Shown here piece by piece: positions 3,472-34,253 of a DNA stretch of 64,000 nucleotides. Where the stretch lies: NCBI GenBank assembly GCA_023473545.1, contig JAMCXO010000002.1:6340-70339 (forward strand). The letters are read 5' to 3'. Position 1 is the stretch's first letter; every line of letters begins with the position of its first letter. The translations under genes were made by a program, and so were the position numbers. The notes below the pieces were generated by a model. That model searched no databases, had not been told where the DNA came from, and worked only from the letters and a program-made list of their open reading frames with translations. The DNA comes from Patescibacteria group bacterium. Its GTDB lineage: Bacteria; Patescibacteriota; Microgenomatia; Levybacterales; UBA12049.

Positions 3472-5706
3472 ATGAAACTGCCTTTTTCTTTTTCCCTGCA
3501 AAAAAAGGAAAACCCTGAATACTTCTTGGCCTTGCTCCTAAGAGAGGAAAAGGCCGAAGCGGTAATTTTTGAACAGTTTCACGGAAAGGTTAAGGTAATC
3601 GGCGAAAACGAAGAATACTTTAACGAATCTATAGAGAAAGCCTCTGATGAAATGTGGCTTGATACCCTGGATAAAATAATCTCTAAAGCCGAAGAAGCGC
3701 TTCCTGCCAATATCCAAACCCAAAAAACAATCTTTGGATTAAAAGAAAGCTGGGTTCTTAAAACACATATAAAAAGAGAGTATCTGGAGAGGATAAAAAA
3801 AATAAGCAAGGAGCTTAATTTAATTCCGATAGGATTTATCGTCATTGCCGAAGCGGTAGCGCATCTTTTGGAAAAAAAGGAAGGTGTTCCTATCTCTGCC
3901 ATATTGGCAGAGCTTGATAAAAAAAATATTACCCTATCCTTAATCCGCGCGGGAAAAATTGTTCATACCCAAAGCTCGGTAATAGAAGAATCTATCGTAA
4001 AAACTACGGATAAATTGCTTCATTTTTTTACCGACTACGGAATTCTTCCGTCCCGAATAATTCTTTTAGACGCGGAAGAAGATAATCTAAACCAAGAATT
4101 TATCTCCCACCCATGGAGCAAAAGCCTTCCTTTTCTGCATTTCCCTCAAATCGAAACACTGCCCGGAGGTTTTGATGCCCAGGCTGTTTTGTCGGGCGCG
4201 GTAAGTCAGATGGGATTTGAGTTACTGGGTGAAACCCCGGACAGAAAACCGCTCAGACAAACCCAGACACAGGAAGAGGCGGCGGGAGAGGGAGTGCCTC
4301 AGGCAGACAAAGGGAACGGAGAAAGCCTTTTGGAAAAAGACAGTGAAGATCTAGGATTTATCAAAGAGGGAGACATTGCCCAAATAAATCTGGACAGAAG
4401 TAATATATCGAATATATCGGAAGAGGCGGAAGAAAAAGCTATCGGAAAAGAGCTTCCCGAAACTAAGGCAGTAATAAATAGATTATCCGTCAAAAGACTT
4501 CTAACATTCTCAAATGCAATCTTTATCTCTTTAAAAGGTATTCTTGCCAAAATGCATCTGCCTTCTCTGCCCGCGTTTAGAAAGAACAAGCTGTTCATTC
4601 TACCCCTTGTCTTTGCTTTAATGATAGCTATTTTTGTTTTGTATCTTCTAAAAGCCTCCGCCAAGGTAATTTTATTTGTAAATCCAAACTCTTTGGAGAA
4701 AACGCAAAATATTACCTTTTCTCCCAATGCCGGTACGGATTTTTCTAAAGATATTATACACGCCAGCCCCATATCCGTATCCGAAACAGGCAGCGTCTCA
4801 ACCAACTCAACCGGCACAAAAGAGATTGGCAATAAGGCAAAGGGGAGTATAACAATTGTTAGTCTCTTGCCAAATCAACAAACATTTGAACAAGGCACAA
4901 GTGTAAAATCATCAAACGGACTGGAATTTACGACAGATTCAAGCATAACAGTGGCATCCAGTTCGGGTGCAACGGATCCTCAAACTCAGAAAGTAAACGT
5001 TACCGCAAAGGATATAGGAAAAAAATATAATTTGCCCTCTGGAACAAAATTCACCATCGGTTCATTCGATAGCTCATCTGCTCAGGGAGAAAATGATACG
5101 CCCTTTTCCGGAGGATCAAAAAAAGAGATAACCGTTGTGTCCAAGAATGATTATGACAAACTACTTGCTGAATTGCCTAAAAGCCTAGAGGACAAGGCAA
5201 AAAAAGACATCGCCCAAAAAGTCTCCCCGGATATGGGAATCATTCCCCTTCTAACCGGCGAAACCGTAACCGCCAAATACTTTGATAAAAATATAGGGGA
5301 TCAGACAGCCCAGGTAACCCTTAAAGCAACGGTTTCCTATCAAAGTCTCTCCTATAAAAAAAGTGACTTAAACACTTTCTCCTTACACCTTTTCCAAAAC
5401 CGTGCCCAAAGCGAAACAGTTACGGCAAGCGGTGTAAGCCTGTCTTTAAAAGATATTAAAGAGAATAGCGATAAAACAGTAAGCGCCAATCTTAAAGCAA
5501 CGGCTTCTCTTTTACCAAAGATAAATAACCGGCAATTAATAGAACAAATAAAAGGCAAACCAATCCAGGACGCGACAAGAATATTATCAAAACTGCCTCA
5601 GGTAAGGGATGTTTCCGTAAAGCTTTCTCCTGCCTTACCCTTGCTGCCCGGTCTTCTCCCAAGAATGGGGAGAAACATAATCATAATCATAAAAAACAAT
5701 GAGTAA
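3472..5706 (+). CDS. Hypothetical single-pass membrane/surface protein. It has an N-terminal cytoplasmic region, a TM segment near residue 380 and an S/T/G-rich repetitive extracellular region. It lies immediately upstream of the sortase and overlaps it.
   Basis: Long ORF with a hydrophobic segment (LFILPLVFALMIAIFVLYLL) and a repetitive S/T-rich C-terminal half. No family recognised. Confidence 0.5.
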   Translation: MKLPFSFSLQKKENPEYFLALLLREEKAEAVIFEQFHGKVKVIGENEEYFNESIEKASDEMWLDTLDKIISKAEEALPANIQTQKTIFGLKESWVLKTHIKREYLERIKKISKELNLIPIGFIVIAEAVAHLLEKKEGVPISAILAELDKKNITLSLIRAGKIVHTQSSVIEESIVKTTDKLLHFFTDYGILPSRIILLDAEEDNLNQEFISHPWSKSLPFLHFPQIETLPGGFDAQAVLSGAVSQMGFELLGETPDRKPLRQTQTQEEAAGEGVPQADKGNGESLLEKDSEDLGFIKEGDIAQINLDRSNISNISEEAEEKAIGKELPETKAVINRLSVKRLLTFSNAIFISLKGILAKMHLPSLPAFRKNKLFILPLVFALMIAIFVLYLLKASAKVILFVNPNSLEKTQNITFSPNAGTDFSKDIIHASPISVSETGSVSTNSTGTKEIGNKAKGSITIVSLLPNQQTFEQGTSVKSSNGLEFTTDSSITVASSSGATDPQTQKVNVTAKDIGKKYNLPSGTKFTIGSFDSSSAQGENDTPFSGGSKKEITVVSKNDYDKLLAELPKSLEDKAKKDIAQKVSPDMGIIPLLTGETVTAKYFDKNIGDQTAQVTLKATVSYQSLSYKKSDLNTFSLHLFQNRAQSETVTASGVSLSLKDIKENSDKTVSANLKATASLLPKINNRQLIEQIKGKPIQDATRILSKLPQVRDVSVKLSPALPLLPGLLPRMGRNIIIIIKNNE

Positions 5707-22512: not shown

Positions 22513-22575
22513 AATAACTTTATCATAACATAGTGTTTTTAAATGTCAATAATTATGCTAAAATTAACACCATAA

Positions 22576-22650
22576 TCCGGTGTGGCTCAATGGTAGAGCG
22601 GCTCCCTGTTAAGGAGATGGTTGTAGGTTCGAGTCCTACCGCCGGAGCCA
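22576..22650 (+). tRNA. tRNA-Asn (anticodon GTT) with encoded CCA.
   Basis: Hand-folded cloverleaf: acceptor TCCGGTG/CGCCGGA (one G-U pair), D-arm GCTC/GAGC, anticodon loop CTGTTAA, T-arm GTAGG-TTCGAGT-CCTAC, discriminator G + CCA. Confidence 0.85.
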
Positions 22651-24111
22651 AAGTTGACGAGAGGCGTAAAAAGCTATCTTGTCAAACGGATTTATCCAGT
22701 CATATCGGGCTTTTTTACCCTTCAGTTCTAAGTTCTGAAGTGCCATCTTCAAAAGTAGCCGTTTTTCGTGGGCTTCAGAACTCTCAAAGACTTTTCCAGC
22801 GTTTTCAGCCAGCTTTAGCAGGTAAGATGAGGTGATATAGTATTCCTCATCGGCAAATTGTAGCTTCTCAATTTTCTTGTTGATAGCCTTTTGTTTTGCC
22901 CGATACTCTTTTCGTTTTTTCTCATAGTAGCTCTCAGTAATACTGCCGTCTATTTTGTCTTCCCAAGCCCGCTCAATGCGGTTCTCGTATTTTTTGTATT
23001 CCGATTGGTAGCGATTAAGCAGGCTTTGATGAAACTCTGATTTGTCCTTATGTGAGCTTTTCAGGGAAGTGGCTATATCCTCAACTACATCAGGGGGCAT
23101 TTGGAGCTTGTCAAACAGGCTTACAAACTGTTTGGTTAAGTCGTCTTCTGTTAGCCACTCAGCCCCGTGTTTACCGTTATATTGAGTGCAGTGGTAGTAG
23201 TGATAGACATTTCCGCTTTTCTTTATCTTACGCTCAGGCGTAATCATACAACCGCAGTCGGCACACCTGATTAAGCCTCTATAAGGAAAAGCCAAGCCCG
23301 CATACTTAAAGCGTTTTTTGTTAAACCCTGCTTTTATATCCTGCACTTTGTCAAAAAGTTCTTGGTCAATTACTCGGTCGTAGTTGTGCGTGTATTCTTG
23401 CCCATCATAAAGCATTGTCCCGCAGTAAAAGGGGTTTTTGAGGATAAAATCAATCTTGCCTTTGGAAAAGTCAAAGCCAAACACTTCTTTAATTTTGTTT
23501 CTTACTTCAAGCATTGAGTAACTGCCTGTGGAATACCACTGATACATTTTCTCAACTATCTCTGCCTCTGGTTCGTCAATGCCTATCCATTTTGAGCCGT
23601 CCTCTCTGGTTATATTTTTGTAGCCGTAAGGGGCTTTACCAGGATACTCGTTTTTGCTTATCTTGAACTTGGCGGTATTGATAGCGTCTTCTTTGAGGCG
23701 GTTAAGGTATTGCTTAGCAAGAAAGACCTTCAAGTCCCAATCCTGAATATCCCTGCCAACGCTATCTTTGTTGATAACAAGGTGGTCGTAAACAAAGTGA
23801 ATTTCCTTGCCATAGTCCAGCCGTAGTTCATCAATCTTAACGGCATCTCGGTAGTTTCTGGTTATGCGGTCAACTCGGTAGGAAATGATAACTTTTATGT
23901 CGTCGCTTGCCTTAACAAACTCAATCATTTCGTTAAAGCGTTTGCGTATCTTGTAGTCGGCACTTTCGCTAAAAACAAACTCTTTGACCACCTCAAAATC
24001 TCTTTTGACCGCATAATCTCTAAGTTCAGGGAGTTGAATGTCCTTGAGCGATAAGCCTTCTTTTTCTTGTTTGAGTGTTGATACTCTGGCTAAAATTACG
24101 GCTTTGGTCAT
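22636..24111 (-). CDS. Large serine recombinase (integrase): resolvase catalytic domain, recombinase domain and zinc ribbon. Its 3' end overlaps the tRNA-Asn 3' end.
   Basis: N-terminal resolvase motif (AVILARVSTLKQ...SLKDIQ; YRVDRITR), C-terminal zinc ribbon (RCADCGCMITPE) and coiled-coil. Confidence 0.85.
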   Translation of the reverse strand: MTKAVILARVSTLKQEKEGLSLKDIQLPELRDYAVKRDFEVVKEFVFSESADYKIRKRFNEMIEFVKASDDIKVIISYRVDRITRNYRDAVKIDELRLDYGKEIHFVYDHLVINKDSVGRDIQDWDLKVFLAKQYLNRLKEDAINTAKFKISKNEYPGKAPYGYKNITREDGSKWIGIDEPEAEIVEKMYQWYSTGSYSMLEVRNKIKEVFGFDFSKGKIDFILKNPFYCGTMLYDGQEYTHNYDRVIDQELFDKVQDIKAGFNKKRFKYAGLAFPYRGLIRCADCGCMITPERKIKKSGNVYHYYHCTQYNGKHGAEWLTEDDLTKQFVSLFDKLQMPPDVVEDIATSLKSSHKDKSEFHQSLLNRYQSEYKKYENRIERAWEDKIDGSITESYYEKKRKEYRAKQKAINKKIEKLQFADEEYYITSSYLLKLAENAGKVFESSEAHEKRLLLKMALQNLELKGKKARYDWINPFDKIAFYASRQLWLRR

Positions 24112-24112
24112 A

Positions 24113-25483
24113 TCAGTTCAAAATCATAGCCTCAACTTGTTTTTTTGCTTCATTTAATAACTTAGAGGCTTCGGTTTTTAGTTTTTCTACTTCTTGATAT
24201 TTTTCCATAACTTTATTTGAAATATCTTTCTGCTTTTCTAGTGGGGGTAAAGGTAATAAGAAGCTCTGTATTGTAGGAATTGTAATGTTGCCTTGAATTG
24301 CCCCGATACGCTCTCTTTGGACTAGTAATTTTGAAATATCGCTATTCAGCCAGACTGATGCATAATTGTTATTAAGTTGCTCATTAAGCCTAAACTTAAT
24401 CATAAAAGAGCCATAAGCAAAGCCGTCAGCTTTTTTAGGAACTACCGCTACTATACCTATGCTTCCACTTCTTGAGATGAGCAGGTCATTTTCGTAAACA
24501 AAACAGTTGCCTATTTCTTTTTCCTTACTTTTTGGTAGATGAACAACATCAGTTAAATCTATATGATTAGGTTTTAGATTTAATATCCTAAGCAATGGTA
24601 TACCGTCAGCCATATAATCGTTTTTAACAGAAGCCCCGTAACGGATTTCGGTTATATAGTTACCAAGCTCTTTAATCGGGTATTTGCTACTCTTGAGTTG
24701 GTTTATGGTCGTCGCAAACTTTGGATTGTGATAATAGGGGTCTTGGCGGTTGCCATCTAGGTCTTGTGAGTTGACGGTATAGATTTTTTCTTCCTCTGGC
24801 TCTTGGTAGTCTATGCCTAGCTGTTGCCTTACAAAGCCATCAATAGAGCTTAGTAGCTCGTCGGCTTGTTTTAGTTTTTGTTCTCTTGTTTCATAGGCTT
24901 TTTTTAATAAGTTGGTTATCTGTTTTTGTTTCTCTTCTGGCAATATGGGTATTAGCAGGTCTTCAACATCTTTAGTTTGTAATCTGGGCAATGTATTGCC
25001 CGTCATCAAGTAAGATGTTTGATTGACAACTAGATGAGAGCTAAGAAAAGCAAAGAGATAGTAGTTACTGCACTTGTGGGCTTCCAAAATATGGAACTCA
25101 GTTGAACATATCCCCTCGGTTGTAGCTAAGTGAACTTTGTTTAGGTATGGTCGTAATTTTGGAAAAAGAATGTTGCCAGCATTAAAGCTAAACGCACTAC
25201 CAAACTCTTTGCCTTGATCAACATCAGAAGCTATACCCGTATCACCTTCTATATTTTCAAGACCAAAATAGGGCGTGTCTTCGCTTGCTTCGCTAACAAT
25301 ATCTCTTTTGAATGTTGCTACTTGGCTAAGAGGCAAAACATCACAACTGAGTGATTTAATTCTTTTGACGGCATTTAGCCTAGTTGGGTGGTATGCACTA
25401 GGGTCAAGTCTTCCCTCAAGGTCATTGTAATTAACAAAATAAGTGTTCATATTAACCCTTGTAACCAGGTGTATTTTTAACAA
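24113..25483 (-). CDS. Restriction-modification specificity subunit (HsdS-like, two target-recognition domains). The true start is probably the internal Met at about 25450.
   Basis: Two TRD halves, each followed by a conserved coiled-coil spacer (EEKQKQITNLLKK...; LEKQKDISNKVMEKYQE). Confidence 0.8.
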   Translation of the reverse strand: MLKIHLVTRVNMNTYFVNYNDLEGRLDPSAYHPTRLNAVKRIKSLSCDVLPLSQVATFKRDIVSEASEDTPYFGLENIEGDTGIASDVDQGKEFGSAFSFNAGNILFPKLRPYLNKVHLATTEGICSTEFHILEAHKCSNYYLFAFLSSHLVVNQTSYLMTGNTLPRLQTKDVEDLLIPILPEEKQKQITNLLKKAYETREQKLKQADELLSSIDGFVRQQLGIDYQEPEEEKIYTVNSQDLDGNRQDPYYHNPKFATTINQLKSSKYPIKELGNYITEIRYGASVKNDYMADGIPLLRILNLKPNHIDLTDVVHLPKSKEKEIGNCFVYENDLLISRSGSIGIVAVVPKKADGFAYGSFMIKFRLNEQLNNNYASVWLNSDISKLLVQRERIGAIQGNITIPTIQSFLLPLPPLEKQKDISNKVMEKYQEVEKLKTEASKLLNEAKKQVEAMILN

Positions 25484-27278
25484 ACCGCTTATACTCCTCT
25501 CGGATTTCCGTTAGGTCGTTCTTTGGGTCTTTTCTGCCCGTTGCGTCGTAGCCTATATGGTCGGCAATAGCCATAAAGATAGGATAATTACCTAGTTTTT
25601 CGTTATCGCTTTTGCGTCTGAGGAAAACCAGAGAGGACTTAACCCCAGCTCCAAAGTGAGCAAAGGCAAATTGTGGTAGGGACACAATCGCTTCTATCTG
25701 GCATTTGTCCATTATGTAATCCCTTACATACTGCAAAGAGGAGTTAGATAAAATACCGTCGGGCAAGACTATGGCAATCCTGCCCGTTTTGGGTTTGACA
25801 AAGTTCACACAACGCTCAATAAACAGAATTTCTGTTTTTTGGTTTTTCTTGCCTTTGCCAAGCTCGTAATGGTCAAGGTAGTTTTTCTCGGTTGATTTAA
25901 CCGTTGCCCCAAAAGGGGGATTGGTGAGAATTAGGTCAAAACGGTCTTTGCCAAACTTAGTGTGCAGGTCGTTTATCTCGCTAAAATCTCTCAAGCTGTC
26001 GGTGCTGATGATATTGGTGTGTCCGTCGTCGTGGATAATCATATTCATCTTGCAGACCCTTGCTATCTGGTCGTTTATCTCAATACCATAAAGGTTATTC
26101 ATCGCAAAACTATGCCAGTATTCTTTGGCTTCCCAGTCGTCGTAGTTTGCCTCTGCGAAGTTTCTCACTTCATCAAGCGAGTTGAGCAAAAAGCCCCCGC
26201 TACCGCAAGCGGGGTCTAGGACTAAATCGCCTCGTTGCGGGTTCATCATTTCAACGCAAAACCTGATGATTTCTCTTGGGGTAAAGAACTGTCCCATCTT
26301 GCCCTTAAAGAAGTCTTCCATAAACCGCTCAAAAGCAATTCCTTTGGTGTCTAGGTCAATTTTGTTAATAGCTAGCCCCTGTAAATGTTCTACAACGCTG
26401 TAAACAACTTTCGGGTCAAGCCTGATGTCTTCCTTAAAGACTTCGCTGTCTTCCTGTTTGGCTTTGAGGTAAATAGAGTTGACCCGCTTAAATACTTCGT
26501 CGGCTGTTTCGTGTGTGCCAATTTGGAATTTGTAAGGCTCGCCTCGTTTGGTTAGCTTTTCGTCTCTTAACTTGCAGAACAAAAGTTTAGACACTTCATC
26601 AAAGGCGGTTGTTGGAGCTAATTTGCCACCTTGCCAGACAGTATCGTGGCTCTTGCCAAGAGCGGTTATCAACTCATCTTTGGAAACGGTTTTAAGCTCT
26701 TTGTCTTCTTCTCCTTTAATAAACCTGTATTTGGGCGTTCTGCCGTATTTAACGGGAATATCGGCAATGACATTTTTCTCTCGCTCGCTTGGCTTAAAAC
26801 CCGCAATATCAAAAGCAGTTTTGGTCGTGCCAGCTACCACTATGGCAAACTTGGCTCTTAGGCTGTTGGCGTTACCAAAGGCTTGCTCTATGGCTTGCTT
26901 AAACTCGGCGTCGGTTACCCCGTCTTTTTTGCACTCAACGATAAGGTAGGGGGTCTTGAGGTCATCGTCTTCGTAAATAACAATATCTGCTCGGTCTTCT
27001 GGGGTTCTTCTTGGGACAGTTACCTCAATGTCAATCTGGTTTTGGGGATATTGGTAGTCAAGGACAAGCTCAACAAAATAGGAAGCTCTAATCGTTTCTT
27101 CTGGGTTTTTGAACGAGGTTGAGTAATCCCTTGAGCAATGGTAGATAATGCGGGCGTTATCGTCAGTAAAAGAGATTAAGCCCTCTTGCTTGCCTCTTTC
27201 AATGTTTCTTAAAAAGATTGAGCCTCTGTCGTTGTTATTTGTCATTTTTCCTTTCATAACTGGTAATAAAGCGGTCAA
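25452..27278 (-). CDS. Fused restriction endonuclease-methyltransferase subunit (BcgI A-like): N-terminal PD-(D/E)xK nuclease (HSDR_N-like) plus gamma-class N6-adenine methyltransferase.
   Basis: Nuclease motif D(IVIYEDD)...LIVECKK in the first 120 aa; MTase motif I LDPACGSGGFL; motif IV LTNPPFG. Confidence 0.8.
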   Translation of the reverse strand: MTALLPVMKGKMTNNNDRGSIFLRNIERGKQEGLISFTDDNARIIYHCSRDYSTSFKNPEETIRASYFVELVLDYQYPQNQIDIEVTVPRRTPEDRADIVIYEDDDLKTPYLIVECKKDGVTDAEFKQAIEQAFGNANSLRAKFAIVVAGTTKTAFDIAGFKPSEREKNVIADIPVKYGRTPKYRFIKGEEDKELKTVSKDELITALGKSHDTVWQGGKLAPTTAFDEVSKLLFCKLRDEKLTKRGEPYKFQIGTHETADEVFKRVNSIYLKAKQEDSEVFKEDIRLDPKVVYSVVEHLQGLAINKIDLDTKGIAFERFMEDFFKGKMGQFFTPREIIRFCVEMMNPQRGDLVLDPACGSGGFLLNSLDEVRNFAEANYDDWEAKEYWHSFAMNNLYGIEINDQIARVCKMNMIIHDDGHTNIISTDSLRDFSEINDLHTKFGKDRFDLILTNPPFGATVKSTEKNYLDHYELGKGKKNQKTEILFIERCVNFVKPKTGRIAIVLPDGILSNSSLQYVRDYIMDKCQIEAIVSLPQFAFAHFGAGVKSSLVFLRRKSDNEKLGNYPIFMAIADHIGYDATGRKDPKNDLTEIREEYKRFVKNTPGYKG

Positions 27279-27438
27279 GGTCGGGTTTGTTTATGCGGTA
27301 TTGTTTACCCGCTTTATACGCCTTGAGCTTGCCGTCCTGTATCCAGCGATAGACCGTCAGATAAACCACCTTGAGCATTTTTGCCACTTCTTCTATGGTG
27401 TAGTATTTTTCTTCTGTCATATTAGCTGTATTTAACAT
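27235..27438 (-). CDS. Excisionase/MerR-like HTH DNA-binding protein.
   Basis: YTIEEVAKMLKVVYLTVYRWIQDGKLKAYK matches excisionase-family HTH proteins; the location in a mobile element supports it. Confidence 0.55.
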   Translation of the reverse strand: MLNTANMTEEKYYTIEEVAKMLKVVYLTVYRWIQDGKLKAYKAGKQYRINKPDLDRFITSYERKNDK

Positions 27439-28594
27439 TATTTAACATTTCTTCTTGATTTGCAAGTAGTTTTAATGGCTCAAAATCAGTTATCTGCTTT
27501 CGGAGTAGAGAGAATACGCTAACCTCATCAGCATAGTTAAGTTTTTGGATTTTCTTGTTTAGACTATACCAGTAGTAATTGCCGTGTCTTTTAGTCATCT
27601 GCCTGTAATCCCTTACACCAATTTCCTCAAGCAACATTCTGAAGCCAGTAAGCTCAAGAGCTTGAGTGGGTTTCAGTTTTGGGTTTGCTACCAATAGTCT
27701 CTCAAAGAACTTTTTAGGGCTGTCGTATTGATATGTCAGTAAAGTCGGATAGGCTTCTTCAATCTCGTTGATGTAATAAAGCAATACCCTTTTAGCCGTA
27801 TCTTGGTTAAAGATGTTTGTAAAAGTTGGTTCTACTTTTTTACCAATTTTGTTGAGGATTTGGTTGATTTTCTGCCGTTTGTTTAGCCGTATCTCAACTC
27901 GCAATACCTCAAATGGTTTTCGTTGGGTCAGAACATCAAATAAGCCAAGCTGCAGGGCATTATCCTTTTCTTCAGCTCGTTTTTCGCTAATTTTAGCTTG
28001 CTCTAAGTCCTTGATTTTGTCGTAAAAAACAATCTCAAACGAGTTAGCCCGATACTTGAAGCTATGCCCCTCGTTCCTAAAATCAGTTCTGTTTGTATCC
28101 AGCCGTTTATTGATATTGAGCTTGGTTAGTTGTTCAAGGTAAGTATAGGGCGTCGTATAGTCAGTTAAGGCTATATTTTTAGAGTAATGGACTGATGAAA
28201 CGGGAGCGTTTATCAGGTTTTTCTCAAAGAGGTAAACACCCATTTCTTTTAGGACGGCTTTAAGTTTTTGGATGATAGTAGGAAAATCAGTGTCCGTTAG
28301 CTCGTCAAAGTTATTGCCGTAAAGCAGTTTTGGAATAGAAAATTCAATTTTAAGCGGCATCTCAAAATTACCCTCTCGGTTTATCCGCTTGGTAACAGTT
28401 AGTCTGGGCTTATAAAGACCTCTCTTAAGTTCATTTGCAGTTGGGTTTTGCTTGCAAGTGATATTAGACCTACCACCCAAACGATAATAGCCAGTAGTTG
28501 GGTCAGTAAGCCCTCTGGTTGACGGACTAAAAAAGTCAGGTTCAAATATCGTATACATACCTGTATTAAGGGTTAAAACGATTGTGTCTATCAT
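27422..28594 (-). CDS. Hypothetical element protein, possibly a replication/initiator-type protein; no confident family.
   Basis: 390-aa ORF overlapping its neighbours on both sides in the element cargo. Confidence 0.3.
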   Translation of the reverse strand: MIDTIVLTLNTGMYTIFEPDFFSPSTRGLTDPTTGYYRLGGRSNITCKQNPTANELKRGLYKPRLTVTKRINREGNFEMPLKIEFSIPKLLYGNNFDELTDTDFPTIIQKLKAVLKEMGVYLFEKNLINAPVSSVHYSKNIALTDYTTPYTYLEQLTKLNINKRLDTNRTDFRNEGHSFKYRANSFEIVFYDKIKDLEQAKISEKRAEEKDNALQLGLFDVLTQRKPFEVLRVEIRLNKRQKINQILNKIGKKVEPTFTNIFNQDTAKRVLLYYINEIEEAYPTLLTYQYDSPKKFFERLLVANPKLKPTQALELTGFRMLLEEIGVRDYRQMTKRHGNYYWYSLNKKIQKLNYADEVSVFSLLRKQITDFEPLKLLANQEEMLNNVKYS

Positions 28595-28859
28595 AGTTGT
28601 TCATTACTTCTTCAAACCGCCTTACAATTTCGTTTTCTATTAACTGGGCAAACTCTCGGTTAATCGGATAAAAAATGTTGAGGCTTCTATCGGCTACCTT
28701 TTTAGTGGGGTAAACGAGCCTGTAGCTCCCATTAGGACGGGTCATAATGCCGATTGAGCCCAGATAGAGGTTTTGGTCTAAGACAAAGCTCGCAAATGCC
28801 ACTAAGCCGTTTTGCGGTTTTATAGGTATGATTTGAATTTCACTTAATCGGTTTGTCAT
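28566..28859 (-). CDS. SpoVG-family protein.
   Basis: LVAFASFVLDQNLYLGSIGIMTRPNGSYRLVYPTKK aligns with the SpoVG core (KAFASITLD..FVVHDIRVI.G.NGLFVAMPS.K). Confidence 0.55.
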   Translation of the reverse strand: MTNRLSEIQIIPIKPQNGLVAFASFVLDQNLYLGSIGIMTRPNGSYRLVYPTKKVADRSLNIFYPINREFAQLIENEIVRRFEEVMNNYDRHNRFNP

Positions 28860-28946
28860 AAGTCCTCGTTACATTTTCCCTGCGGTCAATTTCTATAAGC
28901 ACAGCAAAGAAATCAGCTAATCGCTTCTTTTCTTCAGGCGTCAAAA

Positions 28947-28967
28947 CAAACCCCTTTTTCAGGGGTT
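28947..28967 (-). terminator. Candidate intrinsic terminator on the - strand: stem AAACCCC/GGGGTTT with a 7-nt loop, followed by GTTTTG. It lies about 110 nt downstream of the 482-aa gene.
   Basis: Perfect 7-bp inverted repeat seen in the sequence, with a U-rich tract on the transcribed strand. Confidence 0.35.
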
Positions 28968-29075
28968 TAATCTTCTCAAGCTGAATGACTTTGCCGTTTT
29001 CCATTAAGCAAAGTCTAAGAAAAGAGGTGTGAGCTGAAGTTGTATTGCAGTTAGCTAACTGTTAGCTAATGCTGA

Positions 29076-30524
29076 CTAGAGGTATTTGGGATTTAGTTGA
29101 ACGGTTGATTTGTTGAAAATCAAAAGGTCATTAACGCCTGTCTTTGAGGCTATATGCTTAGACAGCCCATCGCAAGCGGGATAAAACTTATTTTTATTTT
29201 CTTTGGTTAGTTCCTCGTCTTTAGTATCCTCTATGGTTTCTATAACTTCGTCCCAAGACCACTCTTTTTTACGGCTCTTATCGTCTTTTAGCAGTAATTC
29301 AAGCAGTTTTGCCCTGAAGCTGTTTTTGTTTAGTTTGACCTTTTTGCCTTCAACATCCAGCTCGCCTTTCTGGGCATTGTAAGTAACCCTCAATTTTACT
29401 TTGCTTTGGTCTATTTTTAATTCGTCAGTTTTAGGCTTACTCTTGTTTTCCTCATTGGATTTTTGGCGTTTTTCAAATTCAGCCTTAAGAGCTTTATAGA
29501 AATCGTCAAACTTTATAAGGTCAATTCTTATATCTATGTTGCCGTATCCCACAACATCATCATTGTCATAATTGGCTTCCAGTGCGATACCTTCTCTAAG
29601 TAAGTATTGAGCACCTTCCCAGCGGTGCTGTTGGTAGCTTTTCCTTGTGCCTATGCTATCGTAGGGAAACAGCTCTAAAAATCTACCGATATACGGATAG
29701 GGAAATGATGGAATTACTACAGTGGTGCTTCTAGTCATCTGAAGTTGCTGGTCAATATCCGAGCAAACATCAAGGATTTTGAGAAGGTTGAGCCAGTCAA
29801 GATTATTGGGCTTTGATTTTTGTTTCAGCAAGTATTGTCCATACCAGTCATCAAAACCATCGTGGCATTTAACGAGAATAAAATTGGGATTTTTTGGTTG
29901 TTGATTAAGTGGGAGTAAACGATTGGTTTCTCGCCAAACAGTCAGGATTTTTTCTTCTTCTTGGAGTTTGTTCAAAATGCCGTATATTTCCTCTCTCTGA
30001 AACCCATCAAGACCGTTATTAGCACTTTTATAAAACAATTCTGTGGTTTGCCCTTTGACCGTAGCCTTTTTAGCTTCAACCAATGCCTTGAGAATAAGGT
30101 CTAGCTTTTCTTCATAGGTAATCAAAGTATCATTAGCGAGCTTTGTCGGGCTATCTGTTGGCTTCTTCCCCGTAAACTCTTGATATTCAGGTTCTTGTTG
30201 GATTTTCCAGAAATAGTCGTCAAAAGCGGGTAAAAGTTCAATATGCCAGCAGCCGTCGTCTTGCTGATAAGGTGGGTCGTAGGGGTCAAGGTCTTCAACG
30301 ATTTCTACTCTACTTATCCCGCTTGGCACTTGTAAAACCTTCAAAATCTGCTCATCCTTTTCCAGCTTGGTAAATAACTGTTTCAGTTCAATATCTCTAT
30401 ATTTGCGGTTAAGGTCGTTTGTCGGGTCTATTATCAACGGTTGACCCGATGGGGCTAATACCCGTGCATCGTTAATCGCTTCCAGTAGAAAATAAAGTTT
30501 TTCCTTGCCGTCCATCATAATCAT
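29076..30524 (-). CDS. Hypothetical 482-aa protein; no recognisable domain.
   Basis: Long uninterrupted ORF; it is the first gene of the co-directional cargo block. Confidence 0.5.
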   Translation of the reverse strand: MIMMDGKEKLYFLLEAINDARVLAPSGQPLIIDPTNDLNRKYRDIELKQLFTKLEKDEQILKVLQVPSGISRVEIVEDLDPYDPPYQQDDGCWHIELLPAFDDYFWKIQQEPEYQEFTGKKPTDSPTKLANDTLITYEEKLDLILKALVEAKKATVKGQTTELFYKSANNGLDGFQREEIYGILNKLQEEEKILTVWRETNRLLPLNQQPKNPNFILVKCHDGFDDWYGQYLLKQKSKPNNLDWLNLLKILDVCSDIDQQLQMTRSTTVVIPSFPYPYIGRFLELFPYDSIGTRKSYQQHRWEGAQYLLREGIALEANYDNDDVVGYGNIDIRIDLIKFDDFYKALKAEFEKRQKSNEENKSKPKTDELKIDQSKVKLRVTYNAQKGELDVEGKKVKLNKNSFRAKLLELLLKDDKSRKKEWSWDEVIETIEDTKDEELTKENKNKFYPACDGLSKHIASKTGVNDLLIFNKSTVQLNPKYL

Positions 30525-30775
30525 TACTTTTTCAAGAAATTATACTGTCTCTATTTTATCATTGTTTAACACTCTAAGGAAGGATTTTTAGAGGTTAGGC
30601 AGTAGCAAGGGCGGGTTGTTTCAATCCCAAGTTTTCAAAGAGGATTTTGAGGTCGCTAAGGGTTATACTAAACTCTAGTTGTTGGTTGCAGAACAAGTCT
30701 TTTAGGGGGAGCACTAACGTACAGAAATAACCAACAAATTACACAAACGAACACAGCCTCAATCCTAACATCCAC

Positions 30776-30835: not shown

Positions 30836-31993
30836 ATGAAAATCGGTAAGCTCATCCAACAACCCAGTGGGTATCAGGCATTTATCCCAGACAAATTCCC
30901 TCCAAAAGAGCAAATTGTTCTGAACTCCAAAACCCAGCAGCTTCACGCCAAGGCTGTGCTTATGCTGGGTAAATTAGATGGCATTACTCAATTACTTCCT
31001 GACCTGGATTTTTTCATTTTTATGTATATCCGCAAGGAAGCGGCTAAGTCAAGCGAGATTGAGGGGACTCAAGCCACCATTATTGATGTCATTAAAAGCG
31101 AGGCACAAATTGAAAGCCGTTTTCCACAAGATGTTGAAAGAATCATTCACTATATCAATGCTATGGAATATGGCTTGAATCGATTGGAAACCTTACCGTT
31201 ATCACTTCGGTTTATTAGGGAAATCCATAAGGTACTGATTGGTGGTACGATTGACGCTCCCGGTAAAACACCAGGAGAATTTAGGACCTCCCAAAATTGG
31301 ATCGGCGGAGGTTCTCCCAATACTGCTAAATTTGTACCACCAACACACGCAGAAATGAACCGATGCCTAGATGACTTTGAAAAATTTTTGCATGCTACCA
31401 ACGAGTACCCGCCACTTATTAAAGCAGCTTTAGCGCATGCCCAATTTGAAACCATCCACCCGTTCCTTGATGGTAATGGCAGAACTGGCCGGCTTTTAAC
31501 TACTTTTTATCTTTGTAAACTGGGTATCCTTGAAAGGCCAGTACTTTACCTATCTGAATACTTTTTGAATAACCAAAAGGCATATTACGGGTCGTTAAAT
31601 TCTTATCACCAAGAAGATGCTGATGTTTTCGGTTGGCTTGATTTCTTTTTAGATGGGGTGGCTATCATTGCGACAGAGGCAATTGAGGCGTCAAAAAAAA
31701 TCAATATTTTACGCCAGAAAGATACTATTAAGATTCAATCTTTGGGGCGGAGAACAAAAACAGGCATGATAGTTTTGGAAAATCTTTTTAAGCTTCCAAT
31801 TATCAGTGTCAGAAAAGTCGAAGAATGGACGGGGCTTTCTCGTCCCCAAGCCAACGATCTAGTTAAAAAGCTTATAGAGCTAGGAATTCTTGAGCAAAGA
31901 AATAAAAATATCAAGTATGACAGGGAATTTTGGTATAAAAAGTATCTTGATGTTTTCGTGAGTAAAGAAGAAATTAAAAAATCAAATGAATAA
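30836..31993 (+). CDS. Fic/DOC family protein (AMPylation-type motif) with N-terminal inhibitory motif.
   Basis: Canonical HPFLDGNGRTGR (HxFx(D/E)GNGRxxR), an upstream SxxxEG (SSEIEG), and a C-terminal winged-helix-like region. Confidence 0.85.
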   Translation: MKIGKLIQQPSGYQAFIPDKFPPKEQIVLNSKTQQLHAKAVLMLGKLDGITQLLPDLDFFIFMYIRKEAAKSSEIEGTQATIIDVIKSEAQIESRFPQDVERIIHYINAMEYGLNRLETLPLSLRFIREIHKVLIGGTIDAPGKTPGEFRTSQNWIGGGSPNTAKFVPPTHAEMNRCLDDFEKFLHATNEYPPLIKAALAHAQFETIHPFLDGNGRTGRLLTTFYLCKLGILERPVLYLSEYFLNNQKAYYGSLNSYHQEDADVFGWLDFFLDGVAIIATEAIEASKKINILRQKDTIKIQSLGRRTKTGMIVLENLFKLPIISVRKVEEWTGLSRPQANDLVKKLIELGILEQRNKNIKYDREFWYKKYLDVFVSKEEIKKSNE

Positions 31994-32157
31994 ACCTGAC
32001 TTTACCCTCGATAAAATCAAATTTGCCATTGATCAACCGACATTCAAGAAAGCAATGGCGCTATACGAAAGTGGCAAGGTTACCCAAGTCGAAGAAAGTA
32101 TTCGATTGTGTATAGGAGTTGTAAATGGCACAATGTCAGCGCATTCGATAAATTGAT
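31987..32157 (+). pseudogene. Short ORF (56 aa) that looks like an N-terminal fragment of a larger protein; probable gene remnant at the decayed end of the element.
   Basis: MNKPDFTLDKIKFAIDQPTFKKAMALYESGKVTQVEE, then a stop. Over 1 kb of AT-rich non-coding DNA with further out-of-frame fragments follows. Confidence 0.25.
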
Positions 32158-32553
32158 AATTTTATCAGTAGACCTAATGGATTAACTTTTGAAAAGATTT
32201 TTACAAAATCTTACACAAATTTTGGCTGCCACACTTCTATAAACTTCGTTAATGAAAAATTATGGGATATTTTCCTTTTTATATAGTGAGGTCTTTCAAT
32301 TAACTCCATCTTCCATTGAGTAAAATCGCCATATTTTCTCAATATACCGACTTTTTACCTGGATCAAACAAGCTGCCCAACGAAAGCAATACAATATTTC
32401 CTTTTACCAACAACAGTGGAATATCATTAAAGATGCCATTGCCCAGCAAATGAAACTTGAATTAACTGCTACCTAAGTGCGAAACTCGTGTAATTCTCCA
32501 ATTATTCCTGCCATTTTTTATTCCTTTCTATTATAGTGTGATATAATCCAGCT

Positions 32554-32805
32554 GTGTTTAAAAAAACAAAAGGATTTATCTCTAGTTTAATAACAATTAT
32601 TTTATTAGTAGCCATATTTCCTACATTATTTATTATTACTTTTATTGATTTTCCTCTTTATTTTTCTTCGTTTCCCTTAATAGTTCCTATATTAGGTTTT
32701 TTATTAGCTGCAGAAACAGGACTTTTTCTTATCGCGATTTTTCATTTAGTTAAAAATCTTAGTCTATCCTTTAAATCTCTTTCTCGGAAAACTAAAGTTG
32801 CTTGA
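32554..32805 (+). CDS. Small hydrophobic protein (83 aa, about 3 TM segments) in very AT-rich DNA.
   Basis: Preceded by a TGATATAAT extended -10 at about 32536; entirely hydrophobic. Confidence 0.3.
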   Translation: MFKKTKGFISSLITIILLVAIFPTLFIITFIDFPLYFSSFPLIVPILGFLLAAETGLFLIAIFHLVKNLSLSFKSLSRKTKVA

Positions 32806-33205
32806 GAAAAATATTTAATGTGCGATATTATTTTATTTTTTAATTATCTCTTTCTTCTATTTCTTTCTTATTTAGGGATTGAGATAATTAAGTCTTCATG
32901 GCCTACTAATAAAAGTACGGCTATGATCGCTCTCATTCCGTTATTATTGGGATTTTTCTTCTTTGTTTTCCCCACAACGCATAGTGGGATTTATAGTTCT
33001 ATGCTTTGCATTCTTCCTTAATTTTTAAAGAGCCACTAACTACTTCTTTTTTGTTATATACAGTAATACAATATCTTTTTGGGTCTGGGAAATCAAGGTA
33101 GAACTAAAAAATGTGGGTGAATCTTGTAGAGTTTTTTCATTTCCTCTTTGCTTATAATAATTATGACTGATTAATCGCAACGGAACTTTCTGTTATAATT
33201 TCATC

Positions 33206-33739
33206 GTGAATCTTATTTTTCTTTACGGAGCACCTGCGGTTGGTAAATTAACCATAGCAAAAAGTCTTGAACAAAAAACAGGATACAAACTTCTGCATAA
33301 TCACTTGCTTCAAAATCCTATCTCGGAGATTTTTTCATTTGATAATCCTTCTAACAGGCTTCTTGTAAGAGAGTTCCGTATGCGGATATTGGAAGAGGCT
33401 ATCAGGAGCAATATAAATCTTATTTTTACTTTTGGTATTGCAGGCAACAAGCCTTTTGACCATATAGATGGTATTGTTAATACTGCTAAATTACACGGAG
33501 CAAAAATATATATTGTGCAGCTTATAGCCGATAAAGAAACTCTTTTAGAAAGAGTAGAAAATCAATCAAGGAAAGACCATGGCAAAAATTTATCAAAGGA
33601 TTACTTGAAGAAATTATTTAGTGAAAATTCTGACATGTTAGATAAATATCCGAAGTTAGACCATTTAACTATTGATACTAAAAGTTTCACACCAGAACAG
33701 TCTGCAATTAAAATAATTGAATTCTATAAAATTGCCTAA
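33206..33739 (+). CDS. P-loop NTPase/kinase-like protein (AAA_33 / small-molecule-kinase-like).
   Basis: N-terminal LIFLYGAPAVGKLT glycine-rich loop; about 177 aa. Confidence 0.45.
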   Translation: MNLIFLYGAPAVGKLTIAKSLEQKTGYKLLHNHLLQNPISEIFSFDNPSNRLLVREFRMRILEEAIRSNINLIFTFGIAGNKPFDHIDGIVNTAKLHGAKIYIVQLIADKETLLERVENQSRKDHGKNLSKDYLKKLFSENSDMLDKYPKLDHLTIDTKSFTPEQSAIKIIEFYKIA

Positions 33740-33833
33740 CTGAGGAAATGTTCACAAATCGGTTTAAGGATAATATATTATCGCCTTAAATTGTTCCTGA
33801 CCGATTTATTAAAAGCTCTGATATAATCAACTT

Positions 33834-34253
33834 ATGAAGTTACCGCCTTATGTAAAATCAAAAAAATACATTGATTTTTTGCCAGTGCTAGGAAAATCAA
33901 CCGCCAATGCAATATATCCTTTTATTTTTTTGCCTGAGAAAATATTCAAAGATTTAAAAGGAGCAAATCCAAATCCGCGTAACAAAGCCCTTTTAAGACA
34001 CGAAGAAACCCATAGAAAAAGGCAAGTTCGGCAAGGAATATTCAAGTTTTGGATAAAATATTTATTGAATCCTAAGTTCCGTTTTAATGAGGAATTAATG
34101 GCTGATATAGAATATATGAAAGTTATTAAAAATAATAATCTTAAGTTTAATATAGAAAAAAGAGCGAAGCAATTATCGGGGCATTTATACCTCTGGCCAG
34201 CAAACTATAAAAAGGCTAAAAATAAACTAGAAGAAGCTTGGAATAGGAAGTAG
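33834..34253 (+). CDS. Hypothetical basic protein with an HExxH motif (HEETH).
   Basis: ORF with LRHEETHRKRQ; no family recognised. Confidence 0.35.
   Translation: MKLPPYVKSKKYIDFLPVLGKSTANAIYPFIFLPEKIFKDLKGANPNPRNKALLRHEETHRKRQVRQGIFKFWIKYLLNPKFRFNEELMADIEYMKVIKNNNLKFNIEKRAKQLSGHLYLWPANYKKAKNKLEEAWNRK

What the first reader, a model, noticed from the sequence alone, without database searches (positions are those of the whole stretch)
24113..27278. Two-subunit BcgI-like (Type IIB) restriction-modification system rather than a classical Type I system
The 608-aa protein fuses an N-terminal PD-(D/E)xK nuclease module (D...IVIYEDD...LIVECKK, HSDR_N-like) to a gamma-class N6-adenine MTase (LDPACGSGGFL; LTNPPFG). 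A separate two-TRD specificity subunit follows, and no SF2 motor (HsdR) gene is nearby. This is the BcgI A/B architecture, predicting cleavage on both sides of a bipartite site. An alternative reading is a Type I M+S pair that has lost HsdR but kept a nuclease-like N-domain.
Basis: partly seen in the sequence, partly recalled or inferred. Interest (0 to 1): 0.65.

Follow-up and report, generated by a model that had tools for sequence, protein, structure and literature searches.

The report
Motor-less two-subunit restriction-modification system
Two adjacent genes encode a self-contained restriction-modification enzyme of the known BcgI/BsaXI (Type IIB) kind: one protein combines nuclease and methylase, a second reads the DNA site, no motor subunit is present, and the pair rides on a small element inserted at a tRNA gene; databases label it "Type I M subunit".

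Summary
Window 25452-27278 (-) encodes a protein of 601-608 aa. It has an N-terminal PD-(D/E)xK nuclease domain (Pfam HSDR_N_2), a helical connector, a gamma-class N6-adenine methyltransferase and one C-terminal helix. Window 24113-25483 (-) encodes a specificity subunit with two target-recognition domains.

- The closest solved relative by sequence, profile and fold is the RM subunit of the Type IIB enzyme BsaXI, well ahead of every Type I HsdM.
- The four BsaXI residues whose mutation abolishes cleavage match E85, D98, E115 and K117, which are conserved in 74-87 of 88 family representatives.
- No HsdR motor lies in the 64-kb window or within 10 kb in 81 related loci.
- Relatives at 57-61% identity are single-chain R-M-S fusions.
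- A distant homolog, mycobacteriophage Panchino gp28, is a published single-subunit restriction system.

It lacks the BsaXI knob and paddle, so it belongs to the BcgI-like "RM plus C-terminal tail" group. Cutting on both sides of the site is inferred, not shown.

The genes sit in an operon of HTH protein, RM, S and serine integrase at tRNA-Asn. This is a new member of a known kind, of modest interest.

The parts
25452..27278 (-). RM subunit: nuclease, helical connector, N6-adenine methyltransferase and C-terminal helix. 608 aa from TTG; the likely real start is ATG at 27257, giving 601 aa.
   Evidence: Pfam HSDR_N_2 and N6_Mtase. AlphaFold2 model with pLDDT 93.2 and pTM 0.89. BsaXI RM is the top hit by sequence, profile and fold. 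A 601-aa gene call exists on an identical contig.
26754..27104 (-). PD-(D/E)xK nuclease domain (residues 59-175) with putative catalytic E85, D98, E115 and K117; E60/E61 lie on the first helix.
   Evidence: HSDR_N_2 E 3.6e-16. These residues align with BsaXI E73, D90, E105 and K107, which are essential for BsaXI cleavage. Conservation is 74, 87, 86 and 80 of 88 representatives. The model has an alpha-beta-beta-beta-alpha-beta core.
25590..26351 (-). Gamma-class N6-adenine methyltransferase domain (residues 310-563), with SAM-binding motif DPACGSGGF and catalytic motif NPPF.
   Evidence: N6_Mtase E 3.9e-46. D355 and P455 are invariant; G359, N453 and P454 are present in 85-87 of 88 representatives (ORF numbering).
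24113..25483 (-). Specificity (S) subunit with two target-recognition domains and two conserved helices. 456 aa from TTG; the likely real start is ATG at 25450, giving 445 aa.
   Evidence: Methylase_S in two stretches. It matches S.BsaXI over residues 78-451 and the EcoKI S subunit. A 445-aa gene call exists. The TRD regions are not alignable with otherwise syntenic loci.
27235..27420 (-). Excisionase-like helix-turn-helix protein of 61 aa, directly upstream of RM and overlapping its start. Possibly a controller of the R-M genes or a recombination directionality factor.
   Evidence: Translation and sequence. PHROGs hits are 'DNA binding protein' and 'excisionase' (E 2e-12 to 8e-10). The same position upstream of RM is seen in L009, L011, L040, L035, L006 and L030.
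22636..24111 (-). Large serine recombinase (integrase), 491 aa. It starts one base after the S stop codon, and its own stop codon lies inside tRNA-Asn.
   Evidence: Resolvase, Recombinase and Zn_ribbon_recom domains. PHROGs integrase, E 3.5e-62. Junction sequence. Related recombinase genes lie directly after S in L009, L040, L035, L026 and L076.
22576..22650 (+). tRNA-Asn (GTT), the left border of the island. It overlaps the 3' end of the integrase gene by 15 nt.
   Evidence: ARAGORN. The same tRNA-integrase overlap occurs in 8 other loci.
27422..28859 (-). Element backbone genes, not part of the R-M system: a 390-aa protein with no family hit and a 97-aa SpoVG-like protein. They are tightly packed upstream in the same orientation.
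   Evidence: Pfam, NCBIfam, PADLOC and PHROGs give nothing for the 390-aa protein; SpoVG E 7e-9 for the other. Homologs occur in only 5 of 81 non-redundant related loci: L009, L011, L040, L030, L020.

Best explanation
This is an HsdR-independent restriction-modification enzyme of the Type IIB 'RM + S' architecture, the BcgI/BaeI-like group with a C-terminal tail.

Shown here: one polypeptide carries an intact PD-(D/E)xK nuclease, a helical connector and an intact gamma-class m6A methyltransferase, and ends in a single helix. The next gene encodes a two-TRD specificity subunit. There is no translocase.

Inferred by analogy with BsaXI and BcgI:
- Two RM chains dock on one S subunit to form (RM)2S. 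The C-terminal helices pack against the S coiled coil.
- The two TRDs read a bipartite, probably asymmetric, site.
- Each methyltransferase domain flips and methylates one adenine per half-site, using SAM.
- On unmethylated foreign DNA, the N-terminal nuclease domains, held a fixed distance outside the site, cut with Mg2+ on both flanks. This probably needs two bound sites.

The genes are the cargo of a small element integrated at tRNA-Asn. They appear to be co-transcribed with an HTH/excisionase-like gene and a large serine integrase. TRD exchange in the S gene varies the specificity.
For: - Architecture: HSDR_N_2 plus N6_Mtase, followed by a Methylase_S x2 gene.
- Closest solved relative: RM.BsaXI (Type IIB) by phmmer (1.8e-38), by family profile (1.2e-106 across BsaXI 13-901, nuclease domain included) and by Foldseek (E 1e-26 to 1e-28, about 638 columns). 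Type I HsdM proteins score far lower and only over the methyltransferase part.
- Catalytic residues: E85, D98, E115 and K117 align with BsaXI E73, D90, E105 and K107, whose alanine mutants are inactive (PMC11997821). They are conserved in 74, 87, 86 and 80 of 88 representatives at 31-67% identity. The methyltransferase motifs are intact.
- No motor: none in the window. Across 81 non-redundant related loci (1.18 Mb), 64 ORFs of 550 aa or more gave only two ResIII hits, and neither is an HsdR. EcoKI HsdR finds nothing. Pfam-annotated contexts show the same two-gene cassette in a Micrarchaeum genome, a Patescibacteria genome and a Leptospiraceae genome.
- Autonomy: relatives at 57-61% identity are single chains with HSDR_N_2, N6_Mtase and two Methylase_S stretches. 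Bacteroidota and cyanobacterial members are RM fused to one TRD.
- In vivo precedent: Panchino gp28 (827 aa) aligns with query 54-594 (E 5e-48, the D/E/K residues aligned). It is described as a single-subunit restriction system (PMC7542560; PMC12487901).
- Size and tail: 601 aa with a C-terminal helix fits the 'RM, Type I-like, CTT' group, which includes BaeI (626), SdeOSI (630) and BcgI (637) (model).
Against: - No biochemical or methylome data exist for this protein or any close relative, so the cleavage positions, the two-site requirement and the stoichiometry are by analogy only.
- Identity to BsaXI is only about 23%, and BsaXI also needs a C-terminal 'paddle' for cleavage that this protein lacks.
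- BcgI itself was not compared.
- NCBIfam's best hit is MAD2 of the eight-gene MADS system, so this type of M protein can also work inside larger systems.
- The rest of the host genome was not searchable for an unlinked hsdR.
- Only 32 of the 81 related loci have 5 kb or more on both sides.
Confidence: 0.72

Rival explanations
1. It is an active nuclease-methylase plus S enzyme, but it is not Type IIB in the strict sense. It cuts on one side only, or at variable positions, or only nicks, behaving like a Type IIG-style enzyme with a detached specificity subunit.
For: The protein lacks the BsaXI paddle, whose residues D816 and E823 are needed for BsaXI cleavage. No data on cut positions exist. 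The BsaXI authors themselves leave the mechanism for four strand cuts open (abstract, introduction).
Against: A two-TRD S subunit holding two RM chains places one nuclease on each flank. The characterised RM+CTT enzymes of this size (BcgI, BaeI, SdeOSI) all cut on both sides.
Confidence: 0.13
2. It is a Type I M+S pair, either a solitary methyltransferase or partnered by an hsdR elsewhere in the genome. The N-terminal nuclease-like domain would be vestigial or have a non-catalytic role.
For: Public annotation calls family members 'type I restriction enzyme M protein'. The best PADLOC model is labelled MTase_I (471 bits). The S subunit resembles the EcoKI S subunit. The remainder of this genome could not be searched.
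Against: The hsdM equivalog TIGR00497 scores 64.6 bits against a cutoff of 242.75. No HsdR lies near any of 81 loci. The catalytic residues are under strong conservation, which a vestigial domain would not show. Close relatives are single-chain R-M-S proteins.
Confidence: 0.07
3. It is the methylation and recognition core of a larger MADS-like multi-gene defence system whose effectors lie elsewhere.
For: The best NCBIfam hits are MAD2 (E 1.3e-92, covering 58-582) and MAD5 (E 5.6e-35). PADLOC mad2 and mad5 also hit.
Against: The scores are far below the curated cutoffs: 311 against 720, and 121 against 400. None of the four flanking proteins scanned (serine recombinase, 390-aa, SpoVG-like, 482-aa) matches any PADLOC model. 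MADS is an eight-gene operon that includes a kinase. The flanking genes here are an integrase, an HTH protein, a SpoVG-like protein and unknowns found in only 5 of 81 loci.
Confidence: 0.04

Closest known systems
BsaXI (Type IIB, RM + S; PDB 8w0p, 8w2p, 8w2q)
   Same: Both have an N-terminal PD-(D/E)xK nuclease, a multi-helical connector and an N6-adenine methyltransferase in one chain, plus a separate two-TRD S subunit. The catalytic E, D, E and K residues align. BsaXI is the best hit by sequence, profile and fold.
   Different: BsaXI RM is 916 aa. It has a 'knob' inserted in the methyltransferase (residues 626-742) and a C-terminal 'paddle' that is needed for cleavage. Both are absent here, and the protein ends in one helix. 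Identity is about 23%.
BcgI, BaeI and SdeOSI group (Type IIB, 'RM, Type I-like, C-terminal tail' + S)
   Same: They share the subunit plan, the size class (626-637 aa against 601 aa) and a lone C-terminal helix. BcgI works as A2B with one nuclease centre and one methyltransferase centre per A chain.
   Different: The BcgI catalytic Glu is at position 53, whereas here E115 follows an N-terminal extension of about 55 residues. BcgI B is 341 aa by my recollection (not tool-checked) and S here is 445 aa. No direct sequence comparison was possible.
Mycobacteriophage Panchino gp28 (single-subunit restriction system)
   Same: It is homologous over nuclease, connector and methyltransferase (E 5e-48, D/E/K aligned). 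It defends without HsdR.
   Different: Identity is 27%. It is an 827-aa chain with a C-terminal extension of about 255 aa, which the literature describes as a specificity domain, and has no separate S gene. It is carried by a prophage.
Type I R-M systems (EcoKI-like HsdR/M/S)
   Same: They share a gamma-class M subunit, a two-TRD S subunit and bipartite recognition. The nuclease domain belongs to the same Pfam family as the N-terminus of HsdR.
   Different: There is no SF2 translocase subunit. The nuclease is fused to M instead. The hsdM equivalog model is not met.
MADS MAD2/MAD5
   Same: MAD2 is the best NCBIfam match and covers the nuclease-like domain as well. MAD5 is S-like. MADS recognises a bipartite site.
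   Different: Scores are below the cutoffs. The other six mad genes are absent.

Membership tests
Type IIB R-M, 'RM + S' architecture (BcgI-like) | Nuclease and N6-adenine methyltransferase in one polypeptide | tested here: met
   HSDR_N_2 at 59-175 and N6_Mtase at 310-563. The model is confident over both domains.
Type IIB R-M, 'RM + S' architecture (BcgI-like) | Intact PD-(D/E)xK catalytic residues | tested here: met
   E85, D98, E115 and K117 align with the essential BsaXI residues E73, D90, E105 and K107. Conserved in 74-87 of 88 representatives.
Type IIB R-M, 'RM + S' architecture (BcgI-like) | Separate HsdS-like subunit with two TRDs, encoded next to RM | tested here: met
   Methylase_S x2. 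The gene starts one base after the RM stop codon. An S gene lies downstream in nearly all related loci.
Type IIB R-M, 'RM + S' architecture (BcgI-like) | No ATP-dependent translocase | tested here: met
   None in the window. None within 10 kb in 81 loci. The rest of the genome was not searched.
Type IIB R-M, 'RM + S' architecture (BcgI-like) | Homology to a biochemically characterised Type IIB enzyme | tested here: met
   BsaXI RM: phmmer 1.8e-38, family profile 1.2e-106, Foldseek 1e-26 to 1e-28. BcgI was not tested because no sequence was available.
Type IIB R-M, 'RM + S' architecture (BcgI-like) | [quoted passage not shown] | not testable with these tools
   This needs in vitro digestion and mapping of the cut sites.
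BsaXI subgroup of Type IIB | Knob insertion and C-terminal paddle | tested here: not met
   BsaXI residues 626-742 are an insertion relative to the query and the family profile. The model ends with a single helix at 587-600.
Type I R-M (HsdRMS) | HsdR subunit with SF2 motor and nuclease | tested here: not met
Type I R-M (HsdRMS) | HsdM equivalog (TIGR00497) | tested here: not met
   64.6 bits against a cutoff of 242.75.
MADS (methylation-associated defence system) | MAD2 and MAD5 equivalog scores | tested here: not met
   311 bits against a cutoff of 720; 121 bits against 400.
MADS (methylation-associated defence system) | Eight-gene operon with kinase and other mad genes | tested here: not met
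   The four flanking proteins scanned have no PADLOC hits. The system is described in bioRxiv 10.1101/2023.03.30.534895.

The most novel reading that the evidence does not exclude
The four overlapping genes (HTH/excisionase-like, RM, S, large serine integrase) form a compact self-mobilising restriction-modification cassette. It inserts into the 3' ends of tRNA genes, and the end of the integrase coding sequence rebuilds the tRNA. This vehicle would explain why the RM protein is 70-78% identical from Patescibacteria to DPANN, Methanoperedenaceae and Heimdallarchaeota genomes. The small HTH protein would act both as controller of restriction and as recombination directionality factor.
Probability: 0.3. 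Interest if true: 0.5.

Novelty: new member of a known kind. Interest (0 to 1): 0.3.

Why it matters
1. Annotation. Thousands of genes in this family (more than 7,900 homologs at E of 1e-10 or lower) are labelled 'Type I M subunit' or 'N-6 DNA methylase'. They most likely encode complete, motor-less restriction enzymes, which changes defence-system inventories for CPR bacteria and DPANN archaea.

2. Enzymology. The family offers many natural specificities on a nearly constant RM scaffold, with TRD swaps visible between close loci. This could be a source of new Type IIB-style enzymes. It is also a paddle-less comparison for the open question of how such enzymes make four cuts.

3. Mobility. The link to a tRNA-targeting serine integrase is an example of an R-M system carried as mobile cargo across domains.

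None of this alters current concepts.

Tried and rejected
- A search of the AlphaFold database (afdb50), intended to find BcgI by fold, was not available, so BcgI membership stayed untested.
- The N-terminal 178 residues searched alone against PDB sequences found nothing at E of 10 or lower. Only the family profile and the fold comparison link the nuclease domain to BsaXI.
- phmmer with EcoKI HsdR against all ORFs of 87 loci found nothing. Two ResIII-containing neighbours were checked and rejected as HsdR: L029 is a helicase 7 kb away with no nuclease or HsdR C-terminal domains, and L058 is a Schlafen-like helicase with GIY-YIG.
- No direct or inverted repeats marking the island ends were found. 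This is expected for a serine integrase, so the right border (about 30.6 to 35.7 kb) is set only by synteny and by the return of host genes.
- The 390-aa and 482-aa neighbours have no hit in Pfam, NCBIfam, PADLOC or PHROGs. They were rejected as R-M components because homologs accompany RM in only 5 and 1 of 81 non-redundant loci respectively.
- A phase-variation role for the recombinase was considered and set aside. There is no second S gene or silent TRD copy, and no inverted repeats in S.
- MADS membership was rejected on scores and gene content.
Full report
**1. Observation**

The two ORFs are where the finding says, both on the minus strand: 25452..27278 (608 aa, TTG start) and 24113..25483 (456 aa, TTG start). 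The quoted motifs are present: RADIVIY at 96-102, IVECKK at 113-118, DPACGSGGF at 355-363, NPPFG at 453-457.

Pfam assigns HSDR_N_2, a PD-(D/E)xK nuclease family, to residues 59-175 (E 3.6e-16) and N6_Mtase to residues 310-563 (E 3.9e-46). The second protein has two Methylase_S stretches.

The likely true starts are ATG at 27257 (601 aa) and ATG at 25450 (445 aa, one base after the RM stop codon). An identical contig in GCA_023379465.1 carries exactly these gene calls.

**2. What the RM protein resembles**

- By single-sequence search of the PDB, the best match is the RM subunit of BsaXI, a Type IIB enzyme (E 1.8e-38). The best Type I HsdM reaches 4.9e-27.
- A profile built from 88 family representatives at 31-67% identity raises this to 1.2e-106. 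It gives one continuous alignment over BsaXI residues 13-901, which includes the nuclease domain. The best HsdM scores 2e-40 and only over the methyltransferase part.
- An AlphaFold2 model (pLDDT 93.2, pTM 0.89) finds the three BsaXI entries first (E 1e-26 to 1e-28, about 638 aligned columns). Type I M subunits follow (E 1e-18 or weaker, about 420-490 columns).
- The model shows an alpha-beta-beta-beta-alpha-beta nuclease core, a helical connector, the methyltransferase fold and one terminal helix at 587-600.
- The BsaXI 'knob' (residues 626-742) is an insertion relative to this family, and the 'paddle' is absent.

The BsaXI paper sorts Type IIB enzymes into single-chain RMS proteins and 'RM + S' enzymes. 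Apart from BsaXI itself, the RM chains of the second group are 'Type I-like' with a C-terminal tail: BaeI 626 aa, SdeOSI 630 aa, BcgI 637 aa (PMC11997821). The window protein fits that second group.

**3. Is the nuclease likely to be active?**

Alanine substitution of BsaXI E73, D90, E105 or K107 abolishes cleavage. In BcgI, E53 of the PD...ExK motif is likewise essential (PMC3592470).

The alignments place these BsaXI residues on E85, D98, E115 and K117 of the window protein. Across 88 representative clusters, these positions hold E in 74, D in 87, E in 86 and K in 80. E60 and E61 on the first helix are also conserved, in 83 and 81 of 88. The methyltransferase motifs are intact and nearly invariant.

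One note on numbering. The first row of alignment A2 lacks residue 1, so the tool's own numbers are one lower than the ORF numbers used here.

**4. Is there a motor?**

No ORF of 700 aa or more in the 64-kb window is an SF2 helicase.

Eighty related loci were fetched from species-representative genomes, each with up to 10 kb of flank, and seven more came from exact-protein look-ups. After removing duplicates this leaves 81 loci and 1.18 Mb. Thirty-two of them have 5 kb or more on both sides.

- All 64 flanking ORFs of 550 aa or more were scanned against Pfam. Only two have ResIII.
- One is a helicase 7 kb away with no nuclease or HsdR C-terminal domains. The other is a Schlafen-like helicase with GIY-YIG.
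- EcoKI HsdR finds no relative in any locus.
- The Pfam-annotated contexts show the same two-gene cassette among unrelated housekeeping genes. They come from a Micrarchaeum archaeon, a Patescibacteria genome and a Leptospiraceae genome.
- A Klebsiella IncF plasmid relative also has M and S genes with no HsdR.

**5. Autonomy of the family**

An exhaustive search found 14,617 relatives at E of 0.001 or lower. Among the best 150 cluster representatives, many are 820-1186 aa long.

P0125, P0130 and P0171, at 45-61% identity to the query over the RM part (61%, 57% and 45%), carry HSDR_N_2, N6_Mtase and two Methylase_S stretches in one chain. This is the other classical Type IIB plan, as in AloI and TstI. 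In Bacteroidota and cyanobacteria, RM is fused to a single TRD.

Mycobacteriophage Panchino gp28 (827 aa) aligns over its residues 2-570 with query residues 54-594 (E 5e-48), and its D, E and K residues align. It is described as a single-subunit restriction system with restriction, modification and specificity domains (PMC7542560; PMC12487901).

**6. Rivals**

- Type I M+S. The hsdM equivalog model is missed (64.6 bits against 242.75) and no HsdR is linked. The 'Type I' labels in PADLOC and in public annotation are labels, not tests.
- MADS. MAD2 and MAD5 are the best NCBIfam hits, but far below their cutoffs (311 against 720; 121 against 400). The neighbours have no PADLOC hit, and MADS is an eight-gene operon.
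- An enzyme that is active but not strictly 'both sides'. This cannot be excluded. BsaXI also needs its paddle for cleavage, and this protein has none.

**7. Mechanism proposed**

Shown here are the domains, the conserved catalytic residues, the S partner and the absence of a motor.

Inferred from BsaXI and BcgI:
- The complex is an (RM)2S heterotrimer.
- Its two TRDs read a bipartite site.
- Each methyltransferase domain methylates one adenine per half-site.
- On unmodified DNA, the flexibly tethered nuclease domains cut outside the site on both flanks, probably after two sites are bridged.
- The reaction needs Mg2+ and SAM and no ATP.

**8. Context**

The genes lie in an island bounded on the left by tRNA-Asn (22576-22650).

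On the minus strand the following genes run with overlaps or one-base gaps:
- a SpoVG-like gene
- a 390-aa gene with no family hit
- a 61-aa excisionase-like HTH gene
- RM
- S
- a large serine integrase

A Fic/DOC gene follows at 30836-31993. Host genes resume at about 35786 (DHH, IF-2) and below 22512 (Ni-SOD).

Window 22575-30639 is syntenic at about 72-80% nucleotide identity in the aligned blocks with two unclassified bacterial MAGs (L009, L010). The exception is the TRD part of S. A Dehalococcoidales locus (L040) shares the integrase, RM and the 390-aa and SpoVG-like genes.

In nine loci, the window among them, the integrase stop codon lies inside a tRNA gene: Asn in five, then Lys, Asp, Ser and one odd tRNA. 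The HTH gene sits directly upstream of RM in six independent loci, four of which also have a serine-recombinase gene or fragment directly after S; a fifth (L030) has one upstream.

The RM protein is 70-78% identical in Patescibacteria, Omnitrophota, Nitrospirota, DPANN archaea, Methanoperedenaceae and Heimdallarchaeota genomes. This points to frequent horizontal transfer.

**9. Verdict**

This is a new, uncharacterised and widely misannotated member of a known kind, the Type IIB-like RM + S enzymes with a C-terminal tail. It is not a new mechanism. Interest is modest (0.3). The mobile-element packaging is the most noteworthy extra.

Noticed in passing
window 22576-24111; L005, L008, L009, L020, L026, L035, L040, L076: The stop codon of the large serine integrase gene lies 15-42 nt inside a tRNA gene on the opposite strand. 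The tRNA is Asn in five loci, then Lys, Asp, Ser and one odd tRNA. This suggests a family of tRNA-targeting serine-integrase elements in which the integrase 3' end supplies the tRNA 3' end.
   Followed up: partly
window 27235-27420 (-); L006, L009, L011, L030, L035, L040: A 61-aa excisionase-like HTH gene overlaps the start of the RM gene. It recurs in the same position in six independent loci, most of which also carry a linked serine recombinase. It could be a controller of restriction, a recombination directionality factor, or both.
   Followed up: partly
window 24148-25401, compared with L008 and L009: The S gene is the only part of the island that does not align with the syntenic loci. L008 shares the N-terminal TRD and central helix (window 24715-25483) but not the second TRD. 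This indicates exchange of target-recognition domains on a constant RM scaffold.
   Followed up: partly
L012, L014, L015, L017, L022, L024, L036, L042, L058, L064, L065, L070, L078, L087: In 14 related loci, one unrelated gene of 160-416 aa sits between RM and S. These include small membrane-like proteins and, judged by eye only, RhuM-like and Bro/DinD-like proteins. This resembles the accessory genes often found between hsdM and hsdS.
   Followed up: no
window 27422-28594 (-) and 29076-30524 (-): Two sizeable proteins (390 and 482 aa) have no hit in Pfam, NCBIfam, PADLOC or PHROGs. The 390-aa protein travels with a SpoVG-like gene in 5 related elements and may be a replication or regulatory protein of the element.
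   Followed up: partly
window 30836-31993 (+) and 32000-34000: A Fic/DOC-family protein (Fic_N plus Fic) lies next to a low-GC stretch (31-35% GC) that holds a small P-loop kinase-like ORF (33206-33739). This is probably further island cargo.
   Followed up: no
window 3472-5706 (+): A 744-aa ORF beside alanyl-tRNA synthetase has a weak Baseplate_J-like match (E 2.6e-5). This is unexpected among housekeeping genes.
   Followed up: no
L090 (Klebsiella pneumoniae IncF plasmid NZ_LR890357.1): A distant relative (29% identity, 674 aa) with its S gene is followed by a hypothetical gene and two DUF262 genes. tblastn found matches in 336 Klebsiella plasmid records, so a plasmid-borne motor-less M+S module may be common in clinical isolates.
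   Followed up: no
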